From Escherichia phage Mangalyan, in the sequence record OR449013: a stretch of 64,000 nucleotides of DNA. One strand, given 5' to 3'. Both the position numbers and the translations under genes were made by a program. Positions 27,258 through 39,740 of this stretch are shown here, piece after piece (position 1 is the stretch's first letter; each line of letters begins with the position of its first letter). The notes beneath the pieces are model-generated. The model saw nothing but the letters and a program-made list of their open reading frames with translations, made no database searches and had not been told where the DNA came from.

Positions 27258-28379
27258 TTAGATAAAACGCTTAAACATAGAAGGTGATGAGATTGATGGA
27301 ATCACACAAGGAAGTGCTACCTCCTCTTTCTCCAGGAAATTAATCGCAGAAGCTACACAGTCGGCCCAGTCGTCTTTTCTGTTAAATGTTGATCTTTCCC
27401 CGTTGAATTTTTCAAGTTCAGTCAGAAATGCTTCCAAAGTATCAGGATGGAAACTGGATTTTACAATCCTCACCATTCCTTGTTGGGCAAGATTGGCAAA
27501 AGGTGAGAACCTTGTCAGTTTAGATTTGTTGGAAGGCATTGGGTCTTCTTCAACCCTAAACCCTTCGGCGAGCAAGGATCTGGAGGAGGTTAAGAACTCA
27601 CTCTTACCTGCCTGACCGGGGTCCACAGAGAATACGATTATACAATCATCACCATCAAACTGCGCCTGTTTCCTGATGATCACATCTCGTTCACCAGCCT
27701 TTTTACAAAACTTACCTTCCAGACCTGTGGAATACCTCCCGTCATCCACGTTCTCAGGACAATAATCACCGGACAGGTAATAAAAGCCGTCACTATCTTT
27801 ACTTACCTTAACACTGGCGGTAAAGTCAGGAAATTTATTACCGGAAGTTCTCTCGGTTCCTGCCTTATCCCATGCTCTGCAAGATACTGATCCAAGGGGT
27901 ACTCTATCGGCATCACGAAGGAAAGATCTTTGAAAATAGTTTGCACCCTCAGGCTTTGCAAACCAGTTACCATGGAGAAGCTGAGCTTTTTCCAGCTCTG
28001 GTAGACCTTCGAGGAAAGCAAGGTATTCTGGGTTGTCTCTCAAACAGACAGGATTATCGAATATTGTTGCGCCTATGAACGAGAATGACAACGGTCTTGG
28101 CTTGATCTCTACACCCAGTCCGTTAACCGTGGTGTATTTCTCTATCAACTCTTCCTTAGAGTCTCCCCAAATAAATTCACCGTCGCGTCGGATAAAATAT
28201 CTTTTCTTACCGCATTTCTCAGGATCTGGATACCCTTCATCGTCCAACCACCATCTAACCAGTTTGGCAAGCATGTGTTCTGAATCGGGGTTACAGCTGA
28301 TAACCATTCTTGATGGATACTTTGACTGAGATCGCAGACGAGACATCAGATAGTCTATCTGCTCCCATTCGAATTGTGT
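27258..28379 (-). CDS. terminase large subunit, exon 2 (nuclease domain)
   Basis: Frame continues terminase reading after the predicted intron; Asp-rich nuclease-domain motifs. Exon 5' boundary (28379) is predicted, not proven. Confidence 0.75.
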   Translation of the reverse strand, partial: TQFEWEQIDYLMSRLRSQSKYPSRMVISCNPDSEHMLAKLVRWWLDDEGYPDPEKCGKKRYFIRRDGEFIWGDSKEELIEKYTTVNGLGVEIKPRPLSFSFIGATIFDNPVCLRDNPEYLAFLEGLPELEKAQLLHGNWFAKPEGANYFQRSFLRDADRVPLGSVSCRAWDKAGTERTSGNKFPDFTASVKVSKDSDGFYYLSGDYCPENVDDGRYSTGLEGKFCKKAGERDVIIRKQAQFDGDDCIIVFSVDPGQAGKSEFLTSSRSLLAEGFRVEEDPMPSNKSKLTRFSPFANLAQQGMVRIVKSSFHPDTLEAFLTELEKFNGERSTFNRKDDWADCVASAINFLEKEEVALPCVIPSISSPSMFKRFI

Positions 28380-28698
28380 CGTTTATGTTCGGGCAAGGTC
28401 GCTAGTCTTGCCCCGCCATTTTCAGGCAGCTGCATGTCTCCATGCAGACCAGACTATATCTTATAAGCGACAAAAACCGCTTACCCTCCCGTTTCGAATC
28501 GCTTGATTCTACGTCTCTCGACTAGTCGTTGAACGTTCATCCTCTCGGATGCTTCGCTGCGGATTATCTAAATTAACACACTGTTACCATACCTTCGATC
28601 TCTCTTCGAAGCCTCTATAATGTTACCATGACAGGTTGGTGGTGTCAATAATAAAGATTTCCCCGCAATTAGGGAGGTTTTACGAGAGCTACAAATTA
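28380..28698 (-). ncRNA. group I intron (ORF-less) in terminase large subunit gene
   Basis: Minus-strand P (AATTGCGGGGAAA, 28656-28671), Q (AATCCGCAGC, 28551-28565), R (GTTCAACGACTAGTC, 28520-28534), S (AAGATATAGTCTGG, 28449-28462); P1 pairing exon GAGGGU with intron GCUCUC; in-frame TAA right after exon 1. Confidence 0.8.
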
Positions 28699-29124
28699 AC
28701 CCTCATCGAAGCAAACCATGGTGTACTCAAGCCCTTGGTGGTTAAGCTTATCTTGTACATACTCCATGTGGCAGTATTTTACAACAGCCCCCTTTTTGCT
28801 TCTATCCCACTTGCCAGTGTTCGGATCAAACCGTGGAAAAATGAACTTATGATCCTTCTCTCTGAACTTTGGCTTAATGTTTTCAGGCAGATCACTATAA
28901 ATAGCTACTGCTTTAGGCCATAGTCCACCCTCACCTTCCAACTGTGGGGTTGTTCTTCGGAACATAACCACAGAGCTGTGGGGGTCATCAATAATTTTAA
29001 GCGGCATCAACTGCAAGAGGAACGACTTGCCAGACCCAGCTGCACCGCCGATTACCAAAATATCTGCATCGTTTTCGAGGATCATCTTCTGCTTTTCAGA
29101 ACACGGTCCGTAAATCTTAGACAT
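28699..29124 (-). CDS. terminase large subunit, exon 1 (ATPase domain)
   Basis: Walker A GGAAGSGKS and Walker B VCFDEG; ORF terminates in intron. Confidence 0.8.
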
Positions 29125-30227: not shown

Positions 30228-30304
30228 TGGTCTCCACGGAGTGATTCGAACACTCGACCTCCTGATCCCAAATCAGGCGCTCTACCAAGCTGAGCTACGC
30301 GGAG
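30228..30304 (-). tRNA. tRNA-Pro (anticodon TGG)
   Basis: Cloverleaf folded by hand on minus strand: acceptor CTCCGCG/CGTGGAG, anticodon loop TTTGGGA, T-loop GTTCGAATC, encoded CCA. Confidence 0.8.
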
Positions 30305-30315
30305 TATTTACTATT

Positions 30316-30390
30316 TGGTGGCCCTGGGTGGAATTGAACCACCGTCTGGCGATTATGAGTCGCTTGCTTGAACCTTCCAGCTACAGGGCC
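30316..30390 (-). tRNA. tRNA-Met/fMet/Ile2 (anticodon CAT)
   Basis: Acceptor GGCCCTG/CAGGGCC, anticodon loop CTCATAA, T-loop TTCAATT, CCA encoded. Confidence 0.8.
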
Positions 30391-30391
30391 T

Positions 30392-30467
30392 TGGTGCTAA
30401 TGGCAGGACTTGAACCTGCAACCTATTGATTACAAATCAATTGCACTACCAATTGTGCTACATCAGC
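30392..30467 (-). tRNA. tRNA-Thr (anticodon TGT)
   Basis: Acceptor GCTGATG/CATTAGC, anticodon stem ATTGA/TCAAT with loop TTTGTAA, T-loop TTCAAGT, CCA encoded. Confidence 0.8.
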
Positions 30468-30472
30468 AAAAA

Positions 30473-30571
30473 GGTGCTAGGTGATGGAATCGAACCATCT
30501 ATGTATTCAACGACTACCTCGTCTATTTTCAGGATTAAAAATCCTCGCCCTTGCCAAAGGGCTTACCTAGC
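30473..30571 (-). ncRNA. atypical 99-nt tRNA-like gene (Lys-type UUU anticodon loop, ~30-nt variable region)
   Basis: Acceptor GCTAGGT/ACCTAGC, D-arm GCCC-TTTGGCAA-GGGC, anticodon loop TTTTTAA, canonical T-arm GATGG-TTCGATT-CCATC, but ~30 nt lie between anticodon stem and T-stem. Confidence 0.45.
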
Positions 30572-30669
30572 TCAGTATGTTGACCATGTTGCTAGTCGGC
30601 GATGACGACTGTAACATTTGATAATCCGGTTCTGCTTCCGGCTTTCGCTTAATTACAAGGTCAACAATG

Positions 30670-30760
30670 TGGCGGAGAGTAATGGAATCGAACCATCATC
30701 GAGTCATCCTCAATGGGACGGTTTTCAAGACCGCTTGAGCACCATTGCTCCCTACTCTCC
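30670..30760 (-). tRNA. tRNA-Ser (anticodon TGA), class II
   Basis: Acceptor GGAGAGT/ACTCTCC, anticodon loop CTTGAAA, long variable arm, T-loop GGTTCGATTCC, CCA encoded. Confidence 0.8.
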
Positions 30761-30874
30761 TTTATAAATTATACTGATAATGACACTGATTTTCGAGCAG
30801 TTAGTGACTAGTATAAACGACGATAAATATCAATGCCATTATCTGTATTATTTATGCATCTAAAAATATAAATT

Positions 30875-30961
30875 TGGTGGGGAGTGGTGGAGTCGAACCA
30901 CCCGAGTCGCAATGACAATAGATTTACAGTCTACACCGCTACCTCTACGGGATAACTCCCC
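30875..30961 (-). tRNA. tRNA-Tyr (anticodon GTA), class II
   Basis: Acceptor GGGGAGT/ACTCCCC, anticodon stem GTAGA/TCTAT with loop CTGTAAA, long variable arm, T-loop GGTTCGACTCC. Confidence 0.8.
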
Positions 30962-30965
30962 AATT

Positions 30966-31040
30966 TGGCACCCCGTACTGGACTCGAACCAGTGTCAACG
31001 GCTTAGAAGGCCGCTGCTTTATCCACTAAGCTAACAGGGC
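30966..31040 (-). tRNA. tRNA-Arg (anticodon TCT)
   Basis: Acceptor GCCCTGT/ACGGGGT, anticodon stem GCGGC/GCCGT with loop CTTCTAA, T-loop GGTTCGAGTCC. Confidence 0.8.
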
Positions 31041-33977: not shown

Positions 33978-34532
33978 TTACTCCCTACTGTCAATATCAA
34001 AACTCATTGCAATACGGTATGCCTCCTCTAATGGTAAGAGTCTCCCCCACACATCCCAACCGACATCAAGCTGCCTGCCAAACAACTGTTGTGTGGTTCC
34101 GTGAGCATGACCGAACAGTTGGACTGATCCGTGAGGCTTTCTGTTCCACTTTGCAAACTGGTAATGGCTCATACAGATCAAATTCTTGTTGTGGCGAAGC
34201 TCGTAATAATCTACAACCTCATGACCGAACTCTTTCATAATTCTGACAGTCGTCCTTGTGTCATGGTTGCCACGAACAAGAATAATATGTCCGTTCAACA
34301 TATTTAGAATATCTGGAAGTAAGTTGTTGATATTCTTATCATTAGTGCACGCAATATCTCCCAAGTGGAACACAGTGTCTGCAGGTGACACAACAGAGTT
34401 CCACTTGGCGATGATTCCCGCATTCATACTGTCAAGATTGTGATCATACTGAGATCTGTGTTTTTGACATGAATCAAACTCCATGACCCGCTGATGGAGA
34501 AAGTGTGTGTCGCTTGTTACAAAGTATTTCAT
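33978..34532 (-). CDS. calcineurin-like metallophosphoesterase (putative polynucleotide 3'-phosphatase)
   Basis: ATG at 34532 with GAGGA SD (track ORF starts upstream); motifs SDTHF, GDI, GNHD; starts 7 nt after the kinase stop. Confidence 0.6.
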   Translation of the reverse strand: MKYFVTSDTHFLHQRVMEFDSCQKHRSQYDHNLDSMNAGIIAKWNSVVSPADTVFHLGDIACTNDKNINNLLPDILNMLNGHIILVRGNHDTRTTVRIMKEFGHEVVDYYELRHNKNLICMSHYQFAKWNRKPHGSVQLFGHAHGTTQQLFGRQLDVGWDVWGRLLPLEEAYRIAMSFDIDSRE

Positions 34533-34539
34533 ACATTCC

Positions 34540-34950
34540 TCATTTAAGTTTAATGCAGTTTTTAAGCTGGCGTTCCATACGATCCACAACCTTGTCTGGA
34601 ACATCATGAATGCTTTTATTACCGTGGCGGTTTTCAACCACGATCACGGTATAACTATACCCATGACTGATTGCCATGTCAACATATTCCTGCACATGTT
34701 TTTCTTTTGTAAACGTATTACTTACCACGATACGGTCGTATCCCATACGCATCATATCTTCTACGTTATCTTTGCACCATTTTGCTGCGAGTGTTACTTT
34801 ACTTGCATCCCAGTTGTAATTGCCGTCATCGTCATACCAGAACATGTCGTTCTCAAAATGTGGATACAGACCCTCTAAAGATAGCGCATTTGCCAGTGTT
34901 GATTTGCCAGACCCTGGTAGACCACGCACGATATATAGCATTTTAGACAT
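34540..34950 (-). CDS. polynucleotide 5'-kinase-like P-loop protein
   Basis: ATG at 34950 with GGAGGG SD; P-loop GLPGSGKST resembles the T4 Pnk kinase domain. Confidence 0.6.
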   Translation of the reverse strand: MSKMLYIVRGLPGSGKSTLANALSLEGLYPHFENDMFWYDDDGNYNWDASKVTLAAKWCKDNVEDMMRMGYDRIVVSNTFTKEKHVQEYVDMAISHGYSYTVIVVENRHGNKSIHDVPDKVVDRMERQLKNCIKLK

Positions 34951-34978
34951 AGTGACCCTCCGTTTTAATTTCAACGGT

Positions 34979-35007
34979 AGTATACCTGACTGTTTTGTTA
35001 ATTTCAA
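34979..35007 (-). promoter_or_regulatory. sigma70-like promoter (TTGAAA-17-TATACT) for kinase/phosphatase operon
   Basis: Minus-strand elements in the divergent intergenic region. Confidence 0.45.
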
Positions 35008-35071
35008 GTGTTGACACTAGGTTATTTGTGTGGCAGGATAGACTGACAAAATGACAAATGAGGAACGTATA

Positions 35072-35986
35072 ATGAAGTATTTTAATGCAGACGACCTAGT
35101 TGACAAAGGTCTTGTAACCAGTAGGTATTACCCAGATCTCGGGCTAAAGATCTATAAATATGCCAGAAAAGTATTCTACAACAATCTGTGGCATTTGTCT
35201 CCGCGTTTACTGGAGTGCCGAGGTATTGTTGTTGGCAATGAGGGGAATGTTGTGGCATGGCCTTTCACAAAAGTATTCAACTTAGGAGAAAACTCCACCA
35301 ACCTACCGGACAGTAAACTTGTTACTGCGGTAGAGAAAAAGAACGGATTCCTCGGTGTGGTATCATCTCATAAAGGTGACCTATTGTTCTCAACAACCGG
35401 GTCTCTTGATTCTCCATATTGTAACCTTGCAAAGGAAACCATCCAAGAGCAATGTGGTAATTTAGATCTTATCAAGAAGGTTATGGGCAATGAAAACATG
35501 ACATTCATGTTTGAAATTTGTCACCCTTCAGATCCGCATATTGTTCAAGAAGACCATGGCGCATATTTGATAGGTTGCAGATATAATGATTCTGGAATAA
35601 TGCTACCAGAAGCAGCTTTAGATGGGATTGCCAAATACCTTGGTGCAAAACGTCCTCACACTGTGCGTGAAATTCCGTTCAGCTATGCAAAAGAGTTAGC
35701 TGCAGAAACAAGAGGTGAAGGATATATGATTCGTAAGCCTTACTACCCTTATGATCTGCAGTTGAAGATCAAGTCTCCATACTATCTGGCACGAAAGGCC
35801 GTAATGAGGGGTAAAGCTTGGAAGATTTGGGATGATGATATCTTTAAACGTGTTGACGAAGAGTTTTACGGCATGGTAAACTTCATTCGTAACAACTACA
35901 CAGAGGATGTATGGAACTGCCTCCTGGAGCAGGAACGCCGTGAGATACTTGACTGCTATTTCCACAACGAGGACTATATGCAATGA
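35072..35986 (+). CDS. putative RNA ligase (nucleotidyltransferase)
   Basis: Motif I EKKNGF (K-x-N-G), motif IV EGYMIR, motif V LKIKSP; second ATG 35072 preferred (GAGG SD) over track start 35051. Confidence 0.55.
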   Translation: MKYFNADDLVDKGLVTSRYYPDLGLKIYKYARKVFYNNLWHLSPRLLECRGIVVGNEGNVVAWPFTKVFNLGENSTNLPDSKLVTAVEKKNGFLGVVSSHKGDLLFSTTGSLDSPYCNLAKETIQEQCGNLDLIKKVMGNENMTFMFEICHPSDPHIVQEDHGAYLIGCRYNDSGIMLPEAALDGIAKYLGAKRPHTVREIPFSYAKELAAETRGEGYMIRKPYYPYDLQLKIKSPYYLARKAVMRGKAWKIWDDDIFKRVDEEFYGMVNFIRNNYTEDVWNCLLEQERREILDCYFHNEDYMQ

Positions 35987-36333
35987 AGAAGTTGATTGTG
36001 TGGCTGGATGACTTGAGAGATCCGTCAAATTACGGGCTCCAAGACGCTGTTTGGCTAAAGAATTCCTCCGAGTTTATAGATTTTATTAACGATAATAGAA
36101 AGCTCTACAGACGCGTTTCTGAGTGGCACATGGACAACGACCTTGGAGAGTTGTTCGAAGGGTACGATTGCCTATCTATGTTGGAGGAAAAATTTGTATT
36201 TGGTAAGCCCCCTGTAGTTGACAACGTGAAGATTTTCGTGCATACTTCTAACCCATCAGCGGCTCGTAAATTCATGCTTGCAGCTGACTCGTTTAAAAAG
36301 TTTGGAATAGAGATTAAACAAAACATCTACTGA
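35983..36333 (+). CDS. hypothetical protein coupled to RNA ligase and Sir2-like genes
   Basis: 116-aa ORF whose ATG overlaps the ligase stop. Confidence 0.45.
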   Translation: MKKLIVWLDDLRDPSNYGLQDAVWLKNSSEFIDFINDNRKLYRRVSEWHMDNDLGELFEGYDCLSMLEEKFVFGKPPVVDNVKIFVHTSNPSAARKFMLAADSFKKFGIEIKQNIY

Positions 36334-36341
36334 GGACACTT

Positions 36342-37103
36342 ATGCGACGACTGATTATTATCTCCGGTGCTGGTTTGAGCGCTGAATCTGGTATTCCCAC
36401 TTTCCGATCTGGTAGCACTGCAATGTGGGAGAATTTCAGCATCGATGAGGTGTGCAACATCCACACCTTTGCCAAGAACTACTACAAGGTGCATGACTTT
36501 TACAATGCACGTCGTGTAGCTCTAGGCGGTGTTGAGCCTAACCTTGCACATCTTCGGATCGCTGAGTGGTATTCCCGCTGGTCTGGTCGTGTGATCAACC
36601 TTACCACCAATGTAGATGATTTGCTGGAGCGTGCTGGTGTAAAACATGAAGATATTTTACATGTTCACGGGTATTTGCCAGAAATAGTCTATGAGGACGA
36701 TGAAGGAAGTGACGTCATTAAGGACATTGGATACTCTGAGGTAGATGCAGGAAAGTATACCTGGGTTAAACCTAATGTGGTGTTCTTCGGAGAAGTAGCT
36801 CCGAAGTATACAGACATGTATGACCTGTTGACTTCTCTTACAAGCAATGATATGGTTATCCTTGTAGGGTGTTCCAACACAGTTATCAATTTTAACTGGG
36901 AGCTATTCCCTGCCTGCAATAAGGGCACCAAACTGCTGATCGTTAACAAATACGACTCACAGCATCTAGAGGAGAATGGCATTTCACGTAGTGATATTTA
37001 CCAGTACGAGGATCGCGGCATCCCGGTTTGGTTTAACGGGGCGGTTGACGCTTTCTCTGATAAAACATTCATTGAGACCGTAGAAAACTTTATGGAACTT
37101 TAA
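36342..37103 (+). CDS. Sir2-family NAD-dependent protein (sirtuin-like, lacks Zn-ribbon cysteines)
   Basis: Rossmann motif ISGAGLSAESGIPTFR, TTNVDDL, catalytic HVHG, VVFFGE; no CxxC...CxxC zinc module. Confidence 0.7.
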   Translation: MRRLIIISGAGLSAESGIPTFRSGSTAMWENFSIDEVCNIHTFAKNYYKVHDFYNARRVALGGVEPNLAHLRIAEWYSRWSGRVINLTTNVDDLLERAGVKHEDILHVHGYLPEIVYEDDEGSDVIKDIGYSEVDAGKYTWVKPNVVFFGEVAPKYTDMYDLLTSLTSNDMVILVGCSNTVINFNWELFPACNKGTKLLIVNKYDSQHLEENGISRSDIYQYEDRGIPVWFNGAVDAFSDKTFIETVENFMEL

Positions 37104-37116
37104 AAGGAGACCTTTA

Positions 37117-37830
37117 ATGCTGAATACTAAACTGATCGACAACCTGGAAAAACTGTCTCAGCCTGAAAACTACCTTTGGTCTGCCAACTGGGTGGAAAAC
37201 TGGAACCGTGTGGCAGCTAAAGTGAAAAAATCATACACACCATTCGAATTACAGCTTAGCTTCATTGAGGAAGAGTTCAATGAGGTTTTGGAAGAGCTGG
37301 AGAAAGGTGATGGTGGAGATCACCTGCTAAAAGAGGCCTGCGATCTTCACGTTGTCACAAGTTATGCCGCTTATCTTGTTAATGATAATCACGAAAAGTG
37401 GTCAAACCTGTTTGATAATCCACGAGGTCTTAAGTTCAAGATCGGTGAGTTCTATGATACACTGATCGCTGCGAAAAACACATCCAAGCAAAGAGCGTCA
37501 GCTTACCGCTTAGCGGAGTTGTCAACAGCTTTGCTGTTCCAGCTTCGCGGCGATGTGTGTGGGATGATGCGGAAGGTTCTCAAATCTAATGACAGCAAGT
37601 TTGCACGGATCAACCATCTACGATATTCTCACGGTGCCAGTGCAGATATGTCTACTGAATTGCTCATAGAGTTAGAGATTGAAGATCTTGAGCGTCGTTT
37701 TGGTGGTCGCTACGAAGGTTTCGTTGCTAAAGAGGAGTTCTACAACGGTAATAAAGTTATTATATTCCTTGACAGTAAAGGTAAGATTATGAAGCCTTCG
37801 AGCTTCAAGGATGTAACAGAGTATATTTAA
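37117..37830 (+). CDS. MazG-like nucleoside triphosphate pyrophosphohydrolase domain protein
   Basis: EEEFNEVLEELEKGDGGDHLLKEACDL acidic metal-binding helix pair; extra C-terminal domain of unknown function. Confidence 0.45.
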   Translation: MLNTKLIDNLEKLSQPENYLWSANWVENWNRVAAKVKKSYTPFELQLSFIEEEFNEVLEELEKGDGGDHLLKEACDLHVVTSYAAYLVNDNHEKWSNLFDNPRGLKFKIGEFYDTLIAAKNTSKQRASAYRLAELSTALLFQLRGDVCGMMRKVLKSNDSKFARINHLRYSHGASADMSTELLIELEIEDLERRFGGRYEGFVAKEEFYNGNKVIIFLDSKGKIMKPSSFKDVTEYI

Positions 37831-37836
37831 CAACAT

Positions 37837-37862
37837 AGCCGGGATTACCCGGCTTTACTTAT
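37837..37862 (+). terminator. terminator-like hairpin
   Basis: AGCCGGG-ATTA-CCCGGCT followed by TTTACTTATT. Confidence 0.35.
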
Positions 37863-37892
37863 TATGGAAAGTATGCAGTGAGGTAGTTAGTT

Positions 37893-38201
37893 ATGTACAA
37901 GCATTCCAGAGATCTTGAAAAAGATGCTGTGTTTGGCGACCAGATGAAGGAGCTGATCAAACTTATAGGTAGAATGGAAGATAAGTTTGACACTAAAATC
38001 TACATCGATAGCAAGATCTTCAACCACAAAATATGGACAAATGTGTGTGTTGGGCTACATGGTGATAAAGATATTGTAAATTTGGTTGTAATAAAGTTCA
38101 TAGTGTGGCAGAATAGGACTATACGTTATTCCGATCCACACTTACTTGTTTATCCTATAAAAGACCTACTACAGAAGGAGGACTGCAATGCCGTTATTTA
38201 A
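37893..38201 (+). CDS. hypothetical protein
   Basis: 102-aa ORF. Confidence 0.4.
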   Translation: MYKHSRDLEKDAVFGDQMKELIKLIGRMEDKFDTKIYIDSKIFNHKIWTNVCVGLHGDKDIVNLVVIKFIVWQNRTIRYSDPHLLVYPIKDLLQKEDCNAVI

Positions 38202-38457
38202 TCTTGCTAAACCTGTAGAAGCACACCAGTTTGATGGAAGCTCTTCATCAGTATCTGATCTGCAACGGTGGATTGATACAGGTGTGTTTACATCGTCACC
38301 TGTTCGGACCAGAGATATTCGTCGCATGTGTGAGCTTGTTGAGCCGTTTGGTAACCTTGTCCTGTACCAGGGAGATTGGCTAGTTGACTTTATGGGAGAC
38401 TGGTTGGTAATGAGTAAAGAAGAGATGTTTAAAATTTTTAAGGAAGAGGCCGAGTAA
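38188..38457 (+). CDS. hypothetical protein
   Basis: 89-aa ORF with AGGAGG SD. Confidence 0.4.
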   Translation: MPLFNLAKPVEAHQFDGSSSSVSDLQRWIDTGVFTSSPVRTRDIRRMCELVEPFGNLVLYQGDWLVDFMGDWLVMSKEEMFKIFKEEAE

Positions 38458-39740
38458 TGCATCAAATCAAAACAACACTGTACGCACTGAACAAAGATGG
38501 CAGCTACCAACAGTGGAAAGTATTCACTGATGGCGAAAAGGTTATCGTAGAGTTTGGCAAGCTTGACGGTAAATTGCAGTACAAAGAGACGGTATGCACA
38601 CCTAAGAACGTAGGTCGTGCCAATGAGACTACAGCTGAGCAACAGGCCGAGCTTGAGGCTATCAGCAAGTGGGAAAAACAAGTCCGTCTGGGGTATGTTG
38701 AAAACATGGAAGATTGCGAGCAGGGTGTTGATCTTTTACCCATGCTGGTGCATGACTACCTGAAGCGTGGCAAGGCACTTAAACTACCTTGCTGGATCTT
38801 GCGTAAGTTAGATGGCCTTCGTCTGCTTGTTGTTTTCCAAAATGGTGAGCCTAAATTTATTTCCCGTGGTAATAAGTCCTACCCTATTCAAGGAAAGCTT
38901 TTAGAGCAACTTCGTTCTTTCCATTCTACCACTGGGATTAAACAACTTGATGGGGAACTATACATTCATGGTCTTCCTTTGCAGAAAATAGTGTCTCTTG
39001 CTAAACGGTGGCGCACACAGGAAGAGATTCAGGCCGAGATCGATAAAGACTATGAGGCAGATAAAAAACGCCGTCATGCCGCAATTAAGTCCGGCTTATC
39101 AACATACAAAAACTTCAACAAGGTAGATATTCCTGTCGATGTTGAGCCTGTTCGTGATGATTTGCGTTACGGTGGGTACTGTAGCTACGATCTGGAGTAT
39201 CACATTTTTGATATTCCTAGCGACAAGGTGTGGTGGGATCCCGAAACAGAGTCTGGACGCTGCAAGGATCTTATGGATGCAGAGGATACCGTTACCACTC
39301 TGATGCTTGACCATATCAAGGTTGTTGACGCAGAGCTTGCGTACACAGTTGATCATTGCGAAGAATCTGTTGGTATATTCATGTCCGAAGGATATGAAGG
39401 TACCATTATGCGTAACTTCTGTGGTAAATATGAGTACGGTCAGAGAACATCTGAAGCATTGAAATGGAAAAAGTTCAACGACGCAGAGGTGAAAGTTATT
39501 GACGTTGAGAAAGATAAGAATGATGAAGGTGTTCTTATCTGTGTTGACAAGGAAGGTATTGTTGTTAAAATGAAGATGAAAGGTACGCACGAGGAGCGTA
39601 GCTATGACAGAATGCAGGAAATGATCGGCAAGTTTGTCACCTTCAAATATCAAGCAAGGACAGAAGACAACAACTACCAATTCCCTGTCGGTATCTGCGT
39701 CCGAAATGTTAACCCAGACACTTGGGAGGTGCTGGAATAA
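38457..39740 (+). CDS. ATP-dependent DNA ligase
   Basis: Motif I LRKLDGLR (KxDG), motif IV EGTIMR, motif V LKWKKF; 427 aa. Confidence 0.7.
   Translation: MHQIKTTLYALNKDGSYQQWKVFTDGEKVIVEFGKLDGKLQYKETVCTPKNVGRANETTAEQQAELEAISKWEKQVRLGYVENMEDCEQGVDLLPMLVHDYLKRGKALKLPCWILRKLDGLRLLVVFQNGEPKFISRGNKSYPIQGKLLEQLRSFHSTTGIKQLDGELYIHGLPLQKIVSLAKRWRTQEEIQAEIDKDYEADKKRRHAAIKSGLSTYKNFNKVDIPVDVEPVRDDLRYGGYCSYDLEYHIFDIPSDKVWWDPETESGRCKDLMDAEDTVTTLMLDHIKVVDAELAYTVDHCEESVGIFMSEGYEGTIMRNFCGKYEYGQRTSEALKWKKFNDAEVKVIDVEKDKNDEGVLICVDKEGIVVKMKMKGTHEERSYDRMQEMIGKFVTFKYQARTEDNNYQFPVGICVRNVNPDTWEVLE

What the first reader, a model, noticed from the sequence alone, without database searches (positions are those of the whole stretch)
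35983..37103. Phage-encoded minimal Sir2-like protein coupled to an unknown 116-aa partner and the RNA ligase
The 253-aa protein has the sirtuin Rossmann motif GAGLSAESGIPTFR, the catalytic HG histidine and the VVFFGE block, but lacks the zinc-ribbon cysteines of canonical sirtuins. It is translationally linked to an uncharacterised 116-aa protein whose start overlaps the RNA ligase stop. Sir2 domains are NAD-consuming effectors in several bacterial defence systems; a phage-borne, zinc-less version next to RNA-repair genes could be an anti-defence factor, an ADP-ribosyltransferase or a novel NAD-dependent RNA-modifying enzyme.
Basis: partly seen in the sequence, partly recalled or inferred. 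Interest (0 to 1): 0.7.

Follow-up and report, generated by a model that had tools for sequence, protein, structure and literature searches.

The report
Known phage RNA-repair cassette with sirtuin
The two genes are a zinc-less sirtuin and a small receiver-fold enzyme (cREC) inside the tRNA-repair gene cluster of an rV5-like E. coli phage. This arrangement was described computationally in 2022 with phage V5 as its prototype, but it has never been tested at the bench.

Summary
Window 35983-36333 encodes a 116-aa protein whose ATG overlaps the RNA-ligase stop codon. Window 36342-37103 encodes a 253-aa sirtuin with GAGLSAESGIPTFR, HG and VVFFGE motifs and no zinc-ligand cysteines.

The window is a Vequintavirus (rV5-like phage), 98.7% identical to published genomes.

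The "unknown partner" belongs to Pfam PF20274, cREC (cyclic-phosphate processing receiver domain). Its predicted structure is a receiver fold with the acidic active-site residues kept.

The operon is RNA ligase, cREC, Sir2, MazG-like, then a terminator. A polynucleotide-kinase-like P-loop protein and a calcineurin-like phosphoesterase are transcribed divergently.

Iyer et al. 2022 (PMC9503650) describe this neighbourhood, "prototyped by Escherichia phage V5". They predict that the sirtuin removes RNA 2'-phosphates with NAD+, as Tpt1/KptA does.

My comparisons refine this. cREC travels with the RNA ligase. Sir2 sits inside the module only in Vequintavirinae-type phages. It is unlinked, or has no ligase, in Phapecoctavirus, phi92-like and T5-like phages.

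The sirtuin core, including the acyl-lysine tunnel and the SIRT5-type Tyr/Arg pair, is intact. An ordinary deacylase role therefore remains a serious rival.

No experimental study was found. Novelty: already known. Interest: low to moderate.

The parts
35983..36333 (+). cREC: a stand-alone receiver-fold protein of 116 aa, the predicted phosphoesterase for cyclic-phosphate ends
36342..37103 (+). Zinc-less class-III-like sirtuin of 253 aa
35072..35986 (+). T4 Rnl1-family RNA ligase. The ORF is open from 35051; the start at 35072 matches homologues and the EdH4 annotation.
   Evidence: Pfam RNA_lig_T4_1 E 1.5e-14. phrog_562 E 3.5e-66. Invariant K96-x-N98-G99, E223-G224 and K239/K241 among four lineages. 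EdH4 CDS 35072-35986.
37117..37830 (+). MazG/HisE-like all-alpha nucleotide pyrophosphohydrolase with a C-terminal extension (237 aa)
   Evidence: phrog_671 'nucleotide pyrophosphohydrolase' E 5.7e-22. 30% identical (E 4e-15) to FBKp34 gp219, which hits Pfam PRA-PH at 1.3e-5. AGGAG lies 13 nt after the Sir2 stop.
37837..37854 (+). Terminator-like GC hairpin that closes the four-gene operon
   Evidence: 7-bp stem, 6 GC pairs. Annotated as a terminator in EdH4.
34540..34950 (-). P-loop polynucleotide-kinase-like protein, divergently transcribed. The ORF is open to 35007.
   Evidence: Pfam AAA_33 E 1.8e-10. phrog_505 polynucleotide kinase E 7.6e-10. Annotated 'polynucleotide kinase' in MaxBurger. 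Co-linear with Rnl and cREC in Mydo, FBKp34 and Phapecoctavirus.
33978..34532 (-). Calcineurin-like metallophosphoesterase. The ORF is open to 34637.
   Evidence: Pfam Metallophos_2 E 1.8e-6 and Metallophos E 6e-6. phrog_547 E 1.8e-52. Conserved next to Rnl in four lineages.
30228..31040 (-). Cluster of seven phage tRNA genes about 4 kb upstream. These are context: likely beneficiaries or substrates of repair.
   Evidence: ARAGORN and Rfam tRNA hits.

Best explanation
The two genes belong to the RNA (tRNA) break-repair cassette of an rV5-like phage. The cassette counters host ribonucleases that cut tRNA or mRNA and leave 2',3'-cyclic-phosphate and 5'-OH ends.

Shown by sequence and structure prediction: the cassette encodes an Rnl1-type ligase, a P-loop polynucleotide-kinase-like protein, a calcineurin-like phosphoesterase, a receiver-fold protein with an intact Asp-based active site (cREC), a catalytically intact sirtuin, and a MazG-like pyrophosphatase. 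Four of these form one operon.

Inferred, following Iyer et al. 2022:
1. cREC and/or the metallophosphoesterase open or remove the cyclic phosphate.
2. The kinase phosphorylates the 5'-OH.
3. The ligase seals the break.
4. If a 2'-phosphate remains, as in the yeast/plant pathway, the sirtuin transfers ADP-ribose from NAD+ onto it. [quoted passage not shown]
5. cREC and the MazG-like enzyme then break down that by-product.

The role of cREC in the cassette is well supported. The sirtuin step is the weakest link.
For: Domain identities. Operon structure: ATGA overlap, 8-nt and 13-nt spacers with Shine-Dalgarno sequences, and a terminator hairpin straight after the fourth gene.

cREC has a receiver fold and conserved acidic residues plus extra invariant R, H, N and K residues. 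It abuts or overlaps the RNA ligase in Vequintavirus, Mydovirus and FBKp34, and lies within 1.1 kb of it in Phapecoctavirus.

The sirtuin keeps all NAD+-binding and catalytic residues across 40 homologues.

The sirtuin lies next to RNA-end-processing genes in three different arrangements. It sits inside the ligase module here and in Mydo and FBKp34. In T5 it lies two genes from a HAD_SAK_2 'Swiss-army-knife RNA repair' phosphatase (E 4e-20). Iyer et al. report it with 2H, Nudix, cREC and PIN in jumbo phages (PMC9503650).

NAD+-supply genes lie nearby in relatives: NAMPT plus a PRPP-synthetase-like gene in Mydo, and NadR-like plus PnuC in FBKp34. A tRNA cluster lies 4 kb away.
Against: No experiment on this sirtuin clade or on cREC was found.

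The kinase, metallophosphoesterase and Rnl1 ligase already make a complete T4-type heal-and-seal set that leaves no 2'-phosphate.

Sir2 is not faithfully linked to the module. It is about 33 kb from it in Phapecoctavirus. It has no detectable repair neighbour within 6 kb in phage muut and in one metagenomic phage contig (L010). In the other two contigs (L011, L012) the only candidate within that range is a calcineurin-like phosphoesterase. It is present in many more phage records than this ligase or cREC: 1009 records against 759 and 356, and for Salmonella phages 289 against 14 and 14.

The acyl-lysine tunnel residues (V91, H109, VVFFGE, V181-I182) and the SIRT5-type Y54/R57 pair are conserved. 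The best structural matches are protein deacylases. The clade is acidic, with pI 4.6-5.9.
Confidence: 0.45

Rival explanations
1. The sirtuin is a genuine NAD+-dependent protein lysine deacylase of CobB/SIRT5 type (deacetylase or desuccinylase). It resets acylation of host or phage proteins during infection. Its place beside the RNA-repair genes in Vequintavirinae reflects shared early/middle expression rather than shared chemistry. cREC still belongs to RNA repair.
For: The closest sequence matches are CobB and SIRT5 and the closest folds are deacylase sirtuins. The acyl-lysine tunnel residues and the Y54/R57 pair, which in SIRT5 binds acidic acyl groups, are invariant. Sir2 occurs without this ligase or cREC in most records that carry it, and is unlinked in several lineages. 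Skliros et al. 2016 argued for this role for Vibrio-phage homologues (PMC5107563).
Against: All CobB equivalog models score far below their cut-offs. The peptide-stapling V-Y-P segment is replaced by invariant V-I-N-F, the zinc module has lost its ligands, and the TQNID Gln is replaced by Thr. RNA-end-processing genes recur next to the gene in independent arrangements. E. coli already has CobB.
Confidence: 0.3
2. Sir2, cREC and the MazG-like enzyme together act on small NAD+/ADP-ribose-derived molecules rather than on RNA. Examples would be destroying cyclic-ADPR-type immune signals or toxic ADPr-phosphates, which would make this an anti-defence metabolite sink.
For: cREC is predicted to open cyclic phosphates on ADPr derivatives as well as on RNA, and is often fused to Nudix in jumbo phages (PMC9503650 and PMC7824862). 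A pyrophosphohydrolase follows Sir2 directly. NAD+-salvage genes lie near the cassette in relatives.
Against: No known sirtuin hydrolyses such signals. cREC is tied to the RNA ligase, not to Sir2. There are no PADLOC or anti-defence family hits. There is no direct evidence.
Confidence: 0.1
3. The sirtuin is an NADase of the defence type, depleting NAD+ for host shut-off or superinfection exclusion.
For: Sir2 domains are NADases in several defence systems.
Confidence: 0.03

Closest known systems
Phage sirtuin-centred RNA-repair neighbourhood, type 2 of Iyer, Burroughs, Anantharaman & Aravind 2022 (Viruses 14:1977; prototypes Escherichia phage V5 and Proteus phage Mydo)
   Same: The components are identical: sirtuin, T4-like tRNA ligase, cREC, nucleotide kinase, MazG-superfamily pyrophosphatase and calcineurin-like phosphoesterase. 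The window is an rV5-like phage, 98.7% identical to published Vequintavirus genomes.
   Different: There is no difference in content. This is the same system in another isolate. The function is still a prediction.
T4 Pnkp + Rnl1 tRNA-repair pathway (counter to PrrC)
   Same: An Rnl1-family ligase, a 5'-kinase and a 3'-end phosphoesterase are encoded together by a lytic coliphage.
   Different: The kinase is a separate small protein. The HAD phosphatase domain of Pnkp is absent, and a calcineurin-like enzyme and cREC stand in its place. The ligase scores far below the T4 RnlA equivalog cut-off (37 against 242 bits). The sirtuin and the MazG-like protein have no T4 counterpart.
Tpt1/KptA RNA 2'-phosphotransferase (yeast/plant-type tRNA ligation)
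   Same: The proposed chemistry is the same: NAD+-dependent ADP-ribosyl transfer to an RNA 2'-phosphate, giving Appr>p. The gene context is also the same, with ligase, kinase and cyclic-phosphate-opening enzymes (PMC9503650).
   Different: The fold is unrelated: a Rossmann-fold sirtuin against an ART fold. The activity has not been shown for any sirtuin. This is a functional analogy only.
Class III sirtuins (E. coli CobB, human SIRT5, Sir2Af1)
   Different: The Cys4 zinc ligands are lost, TQNID has become TTNVD, and V-Y-P has become V-I-N-F. The protein scores below every CobB equivalog cut-off.
CheY-like receiver (REC) domains
   Different: There is no histidine kinase and no output domain. 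It is always in RNA-repair or NAD-related contexts. It carries extra invariant R12, H87, N90 and K96. It is predicted to be an enzyme, not a signalling switch (PMC7824862).

Membership tests
Sirtuin superfamily (Pfam SIR2, PF02146) | Score above the Pfam gathering threshold | tested here: met
   95.3 bits against a cut-off of 24, E 5.5e-27.
Sirtuin superfamily (Pfam SIR2, PF02146) | Rossmann GAGxS NAD+ motif, the N-x-D motif and the catalytic His | tested here: met
   G9-A10-G11..S16, N90/D92 and H109 are invariant in 40 homologues. The Gln of TQNID is replaced by invariant T89.
Sirtuin superfamily (Pfam SIR2, PF02146) | Cys4 zinc-binding module | tested here: not met
   There are no Cys in residues 111-142. 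Of the 40 clade members, 24 have none and 16 have one. The module length is retained. The nearest relatives with four or more Cys appear at about 40-45% identity.
Sirtuin superfamily (Pfam SIR2, PF02146) | Sirtuin fold | tested here: met
Sirtuin superfamily (Pfam SIR2, PF02146) | NAD+-dependent deacylase or ADP-ribosyltransferase activity | not testable with these tools
   This needs biochemistry.
CobB protein deacylase (NCBIfam equivalogs NF040867, NF001755 and others) | Score above the curated equivalog cut-off | tested here: not met
   The best score is 122.4 bits against a cut-off of 243. NF040867 gives 102.7 against 320.
Defence-type SIR2 NADases (ThsA, DSR, HerA-Sir2, pAgo-Sir2) | Match to models of defence-system proteins, and an associated sensor or partner | tested here: not met
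cREC (Pfam PF20274) | Score above the gathering threshold | tested here: met
   57.1 bits against a cut-off of 27, E 3.1e-15. All 54 full-length homologues carry PF20274.
cREC (Pfam PF20274) | Receiver fold with conserved aspartates | tested here: met
cREC (Pfam PF20274) | Genomic linkage to RNA ligase or NAD-processing genes, never to a histidine kinase | tested here: met
   It overlaps the Rnl stop codon here and in Mydo and FBKp34, and lies near Rnl in Phapecoctavirus.
cREC (Pfam PF20274) | Cyclic-phosphate phosphoesterase activity | not testable with these tools
   This is a prediction only (PMC7824862, PMC9503650). No experimental paper was found.
Type-2 phage sirtuin RNA-repair neighbourhood (Iyer et al. 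2022) | Sirtuin, T4-like ligase, cREC, nucleotide kinase and MazG, with or without a calcineurin-like phosphoesterase, all in one neighbourhood | tested here: met
   All six lie within window 33978-37830.
Tpt1/KptA | ART fold | tested here: not met
   The protein is a Rossmann-fold sirtuin. Only a functional analogy is proposed.
Tpt1/KptA | RNA 2'-phosphotransferase activity | not testable with these tools
   This needs an assay on 2'-PO4 RNA with NAD+.
T4 Rnl1 (RnlA) RNA ligase | Pfam RNA_lig_T4_1 domain with the lysine nucleophile motif | tested here: met
   54.8 bits against a cut-off of 28.3. K96-x-N-G is invariant. The NCBIfam T4 RnlA equivalog cut-off is not met (37 against 242).

The most novel reading that the evidence does not exclude
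The zinc-less phage sirtuin could be the first sirtuin whose physiological substrate is a nucleic-acid phosphate. In this reading it is a Tpt1-analogous RNA 2'-phosphotransferase, and the Tyr54/Arg57 pocket that binds acidic acyl groups in SIRT5 has been re-used for phosphate. The receiver-fold cREC would then be a new class of aspartate-based 2',3'-cyclic phosphodiesterase working with the Rnl1 ligase. This has been predicted in silico but never shown.
Probability: 0.3. Interest if true: 0.65.

Novelty: already known. Interest (0 to 1): 0.3.

Why it matters
If the prediction holds, sirtuin chemistry would extend from protein acyl-lysines to RNA ends. It would also add a receiver-fold enzyme to the RNA-healing toolkit. 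And it would explain how more than 1000 sequenced coliphage, Salmonella and Klebsiella phage genomes, T5 among them, spend NAD+ to survive tRNA-cleaving defences.

As a scan result, however, this locus is a re-sighting of a published, computationally described cassette in a well-sequenced phage genus. Its value is as a ready experimental target, because BASEL phage Bas54 (MaxBurger) carries a near-identical cassette with an identical Sir2 protein. It is not a discovery.

Tried and rejected
- PADLOC scan of the four operon proteins: no hits. The defence-type NADase reading was rejected.
- The first homologue search timed out and was repeated.
- Three metagenomic Sir2 contexts and Pfam scans of their neighbours showed no ligase, cREC or HAD_SAK. 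Only calcineurin-like phosphoesterases lay 1.6-2.3 kb away. This weakens the universal link between Sir2 and RNA repair rather than strengthening it.
- Literature searches for experimental work on phage sirtuins, cREC, or sirtuin activity on RNA 2'-phosphate found only the in-silico papers and one transcript/modelling study.
- I looked for NAD+-salvage genes in the rV5-like genome itself through the EdH4 and MaxBurger annotations. None is annotated in the regions read.
- 'Minimal' sirtuin: rejected. The length and the small module are normal for prokaryotic sirtuins.
Full report
**What is there.** The window is part of a Vequintavirus (rV5-like E. coli myophage). The 3-kb stretch 35000-38000 is 98.7% identical to Escherichia phages EdH4, rV5_ev168 and MaxBurger (Bas54). 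In all, 118 phage records cover at least 80% of it.

The ORF list confirms both genes of the finding: 35983-36333 (+, 116 aa) and 36342-37103 (+, 253 aa).
- The ATG of the 116-aa gene overlaps the TGA of the upstream RNA-ligase gene (caATGAag).
- Eight nucleotides carrying GAGGA separate the 116-aa stop from the Sir2 start.
- Thirteen nucleotides carrying AGGAG separate the Sir2 stop from a fourth gene, 37117-37830.
- A GC-rich hairpin at 37837-37854 follows that gene directly. EdH4 annotates it as a terminator.

The transcription unit is therefore ligase, 116-aa protein, Sir2, 237-aa protein. A P-loop kinase (34540-34950) and a calcineurin-like phosphoesterase (33978-34532) are transcribed divergently from the same intergenic region. 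Seven tRNA genes lie 4 kb upstream.

**The sirtuin.**
- Family scores. Pfam SIR2 scores 95.3 bits (E 5.5e-27) and PHROG 2162 gives E 3e-109.
- Motifs.
- Closest solved relatives by sequence. These are E. coli CobB (4e-21) and human SIRT5 (6e-21). The alignment puts Y54 and R57 on SIRT5 Y102 and R105, the pair that binds acidic acyl groups. Both are invariant in the clade.
- Zinc ligands. Where CobB has its Cys cluster, the phage protein has a Cys-free segment of similar length.
- Other scans. PADLOC finds nothing. All NCBIfam CobB models score far below their cut-offs, the best being 122 against 243.
- Wider relatives. In a search of 1.84 billion representatives, 76 proteins score E<=1e-30 and 1521 score E<=1e-10. 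Among the nearest 40 representatives, 23 have no Cys in the module. Among ranks 81-150, 50 of 70 have four or more. Module length is about the same in both groups.

The protein is therefore a CobB/SIRT5-like sirtuin that lost its zinc ligands but kept the module. It is neither "minimal" nor an NADase of the defence kind. Three clade-specific changes touch the substrate side: TQNID has become TTNVD, the peptide-stapling V-Y-P has become V-I-N-F, and the zinc is lost. The clade is acidic, with pI 4.6-5.9.

**The 116-aa partner.** It is not family-less.
- Family scores. It matches Pfam PF20274, cREC_REC ("cyclic-phosphate processing receiver domain"), at 57.1 bits against a cut-off of 27, and PHROG 1479. 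Recent GenBank records already use that name.
- Active site. The alignment of 40 homologues conserves D9 and D10 after strand 1, D51 and D53 after strand 3, and T88 and S89 after strand 4. It also conserves residues that classical receivers lack: R12, P14, W24, H87, N90, P91 and K96.

This pattern suits an enzyme that uses aspartyl-phosphate chemistry better than it suits a signalling switch. That last point is an inference.

**The other cassette genes.**
- The ligase is of the T4 Rnl1 family (Pfam 54.8 bits), with invariant K96-x-N-G, E223-G224 and K239/K241.
- The 237-aa protein hits PHROG 671, "nucleotide pyrophosphohydrolase" (5.7e-22). It is 30% identical to a Klebsiella-phage protein that hits the MazG-like PRA-PH family.
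- The kinase hits AAA_33 and the PHROG polynucleotide kinase family.
- The phosphoesterase hits Metallophos.

[quoted passage not shown] That is exactly this locus.

They propose that the sirtuin acts like KptA/Tpt1, removing 2'-phosphates left after cyclic-phosphate opening. The other enzymes would open the cyclic phosphate or process the ADPr>P by-product. cREC was defined in their 2021 jumbo-phage paper (PMC7824862), and they note it is experimentally uncharacterised.

Skliros et al. 2016 (PMC5107563) had already noted that Vibrio-phage Sir2/CobB proteins replace the zinc ligands with salt bridges. They argued for a protein-deacetylase role. I found no experimental study of either protein.

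**What my comparisons add.** tblastn against 50,697 phage records finds the sirtuin clade in 1009 records, this ligase in 759 and this cREC in 356. For Salmonella phages the counts are 289, 14 and 14. Most T5-like phages therefore carry the sirtuin without this ligase or cREC.

| Lineage | Gene order |
|---|---|
| This window (Vequintavirus) | phosphoesterase and kinase (divergent); Rnl, cREC, Sir2, MazG-like, ..., DNA ligase |
| Mydo and FBKp34 | phosphoesterase, Rnl, cREC, kinase, small ORF, Sir2, ..., DNA ligase, MazG-like |
| Phapecoctavirus | cREC, ..., phosphoesterase, Rnl, kinase, ..., DNA ligase; Sir2 about 33 kb away |
| T5 | Sir2 two genes upstream of a HAD_SAK_2 "Swiss-army-knife RNA repair" phosphatase (E 4e-20); no ligase in the region read |
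| Phage muut and three metagenomic phages | Sir2 with no recognisable repair neighbour within 6 kb, apart from calcineurin-like phosphoesterases in two |

The stable module is phosphoesterase, ligase, cREC and kinase. cREC is the ligase's partner, not the sirtuin's. The sirtuin is a mobile addition that lands next to RNA-end-processing genes repeatedly but not always. In relatives, NAD+-supply genes lie a few kb from the cassette: NAMPT plus a PRPP-synthetase-like gene in Mydo, and NadR-like plus PnuC in FBKp34.

**Most likely mechanism.** I adopt the published model with graded confidence.
- About 0.8: this is an RNA break-repair cassette, and cREC is one of its end-healing enzymes.
- About 0.3-0.4: the sirtuin performs a Tpt1-like 2'-phosphate removal.
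- 0.45: the combined statement as submitted.

Four points count against the sirtuin step:
- The kinase, metallophosphoesterase and Rnl1 ligase are already sufficient for T4-type repair.
- The sirtuin keeps its acyl-lysine tunnel and resembles deacylases most.
- It is acidic.
- It is often unlinked from the module.

The main rival (0.3) is therefore a CobB/SIRT5-like protein deacylase that happens to be co-expressed with the repair genes. A role in destroying NAD-derived immune signals or toxic ADPr-phosphates together with cREC and the MazG-like enzyme is possible but unsupported (0.1). A defence-type NADase role is nearly excluded (0.03).

The system is already known from comparative genomics, with this phage genus as the prototype. 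Its biochemistry is still open. Interest is 0.3. It would rise to about 0.65 if the sirtuin were shown to act on RNA.

Noticed in passing
window 28374-28699 (- strand); Rfam hit 28430-28708: A group I intron (RF00028, 83.8 bits, E 7e-20) splits the terminase large-subunit gene into ORFs 28696-29124 and 27258-28346. It is a 326-nt insertion relative to phage EdH4, whose terL is continuous. MaxBurger's terL is already annotated as a two-piece join with a homing endonuclease inside, so terL introns are known in this genus. This copy has no endonuclease ORF.
   Followed up: partly
window 30473-30571 (- strand): An unusually long tRNA-like gene of 97-99 nt. ARAGORN calls a 4-base anticodon (atcc), Rfam tRNA scores 37.5 bits, and MaxBurger annotates it as tRNA-Lys. 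By eye the anticodon loop reads UUUUUAA (anticodon UUU, Lys), followed by an extra arm of about 30 nt, which is atypical for tRNA-Lys. From my own knowledge, tRNA-Lys(UUU) is a classic target of anticodon nucleases such as PrrC. The gene lies 4 kb from the repair cassette.
   Followed up: partly
GenBank records MG0656xx found with window 35000-38000 and the three proteins: About 18-25 records named 'Campylobacter phage' (host C. jejuni) match this E. coli rV5-like sequence: about 96% DNA identity for the one listed, and 84-99% at the protein level for Sir2, cREC and the ligase. The host labels are probably wrong or come from mixed lysates.
   Followed up: no
L006 (Proteus phage Mydo) 1-1124; L003 (Klebsiella phage FBKp34) 65-2006: NAD+-supply genes lie 4-5 kb upstream of the ligase-cREC-kinase-Sir2 cassette in relatives. 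Mydo has a nicotinamide phosphoribosyltransferase plus a ribose-phosphate pyrophosphokinase-like gene. FBKp34 has a NadR-like ribosylnicotinamide kinase/adenylyltransferase plus a PnuC transporter. No equivalent is annotated in the parts of the rV5-like genomes that I read.
   Followed up: partly
window 38457-39740 (+): An ATP-dependent DNA ligase lies 1.3 kb downstream of Sir2. In Mydo its start overlaps the Sir2 stop, and it also follows the RNA-repair module in FBKp34 and Phapecoctavirus. The RNA-ligase and DNA-ligase genes thus form one conserved 'nick-sealing' block.
   Followed up: no
L002 (phage T5) 8651-9481: In T5, two paralogous DUF7415 proteins (T5p104 and T5p105, E about 1e-30) directly follow the HAD_SAK_2 phosphatase downstream of the T5 sirtuin. 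Their function is unknown.
   Followed up: no
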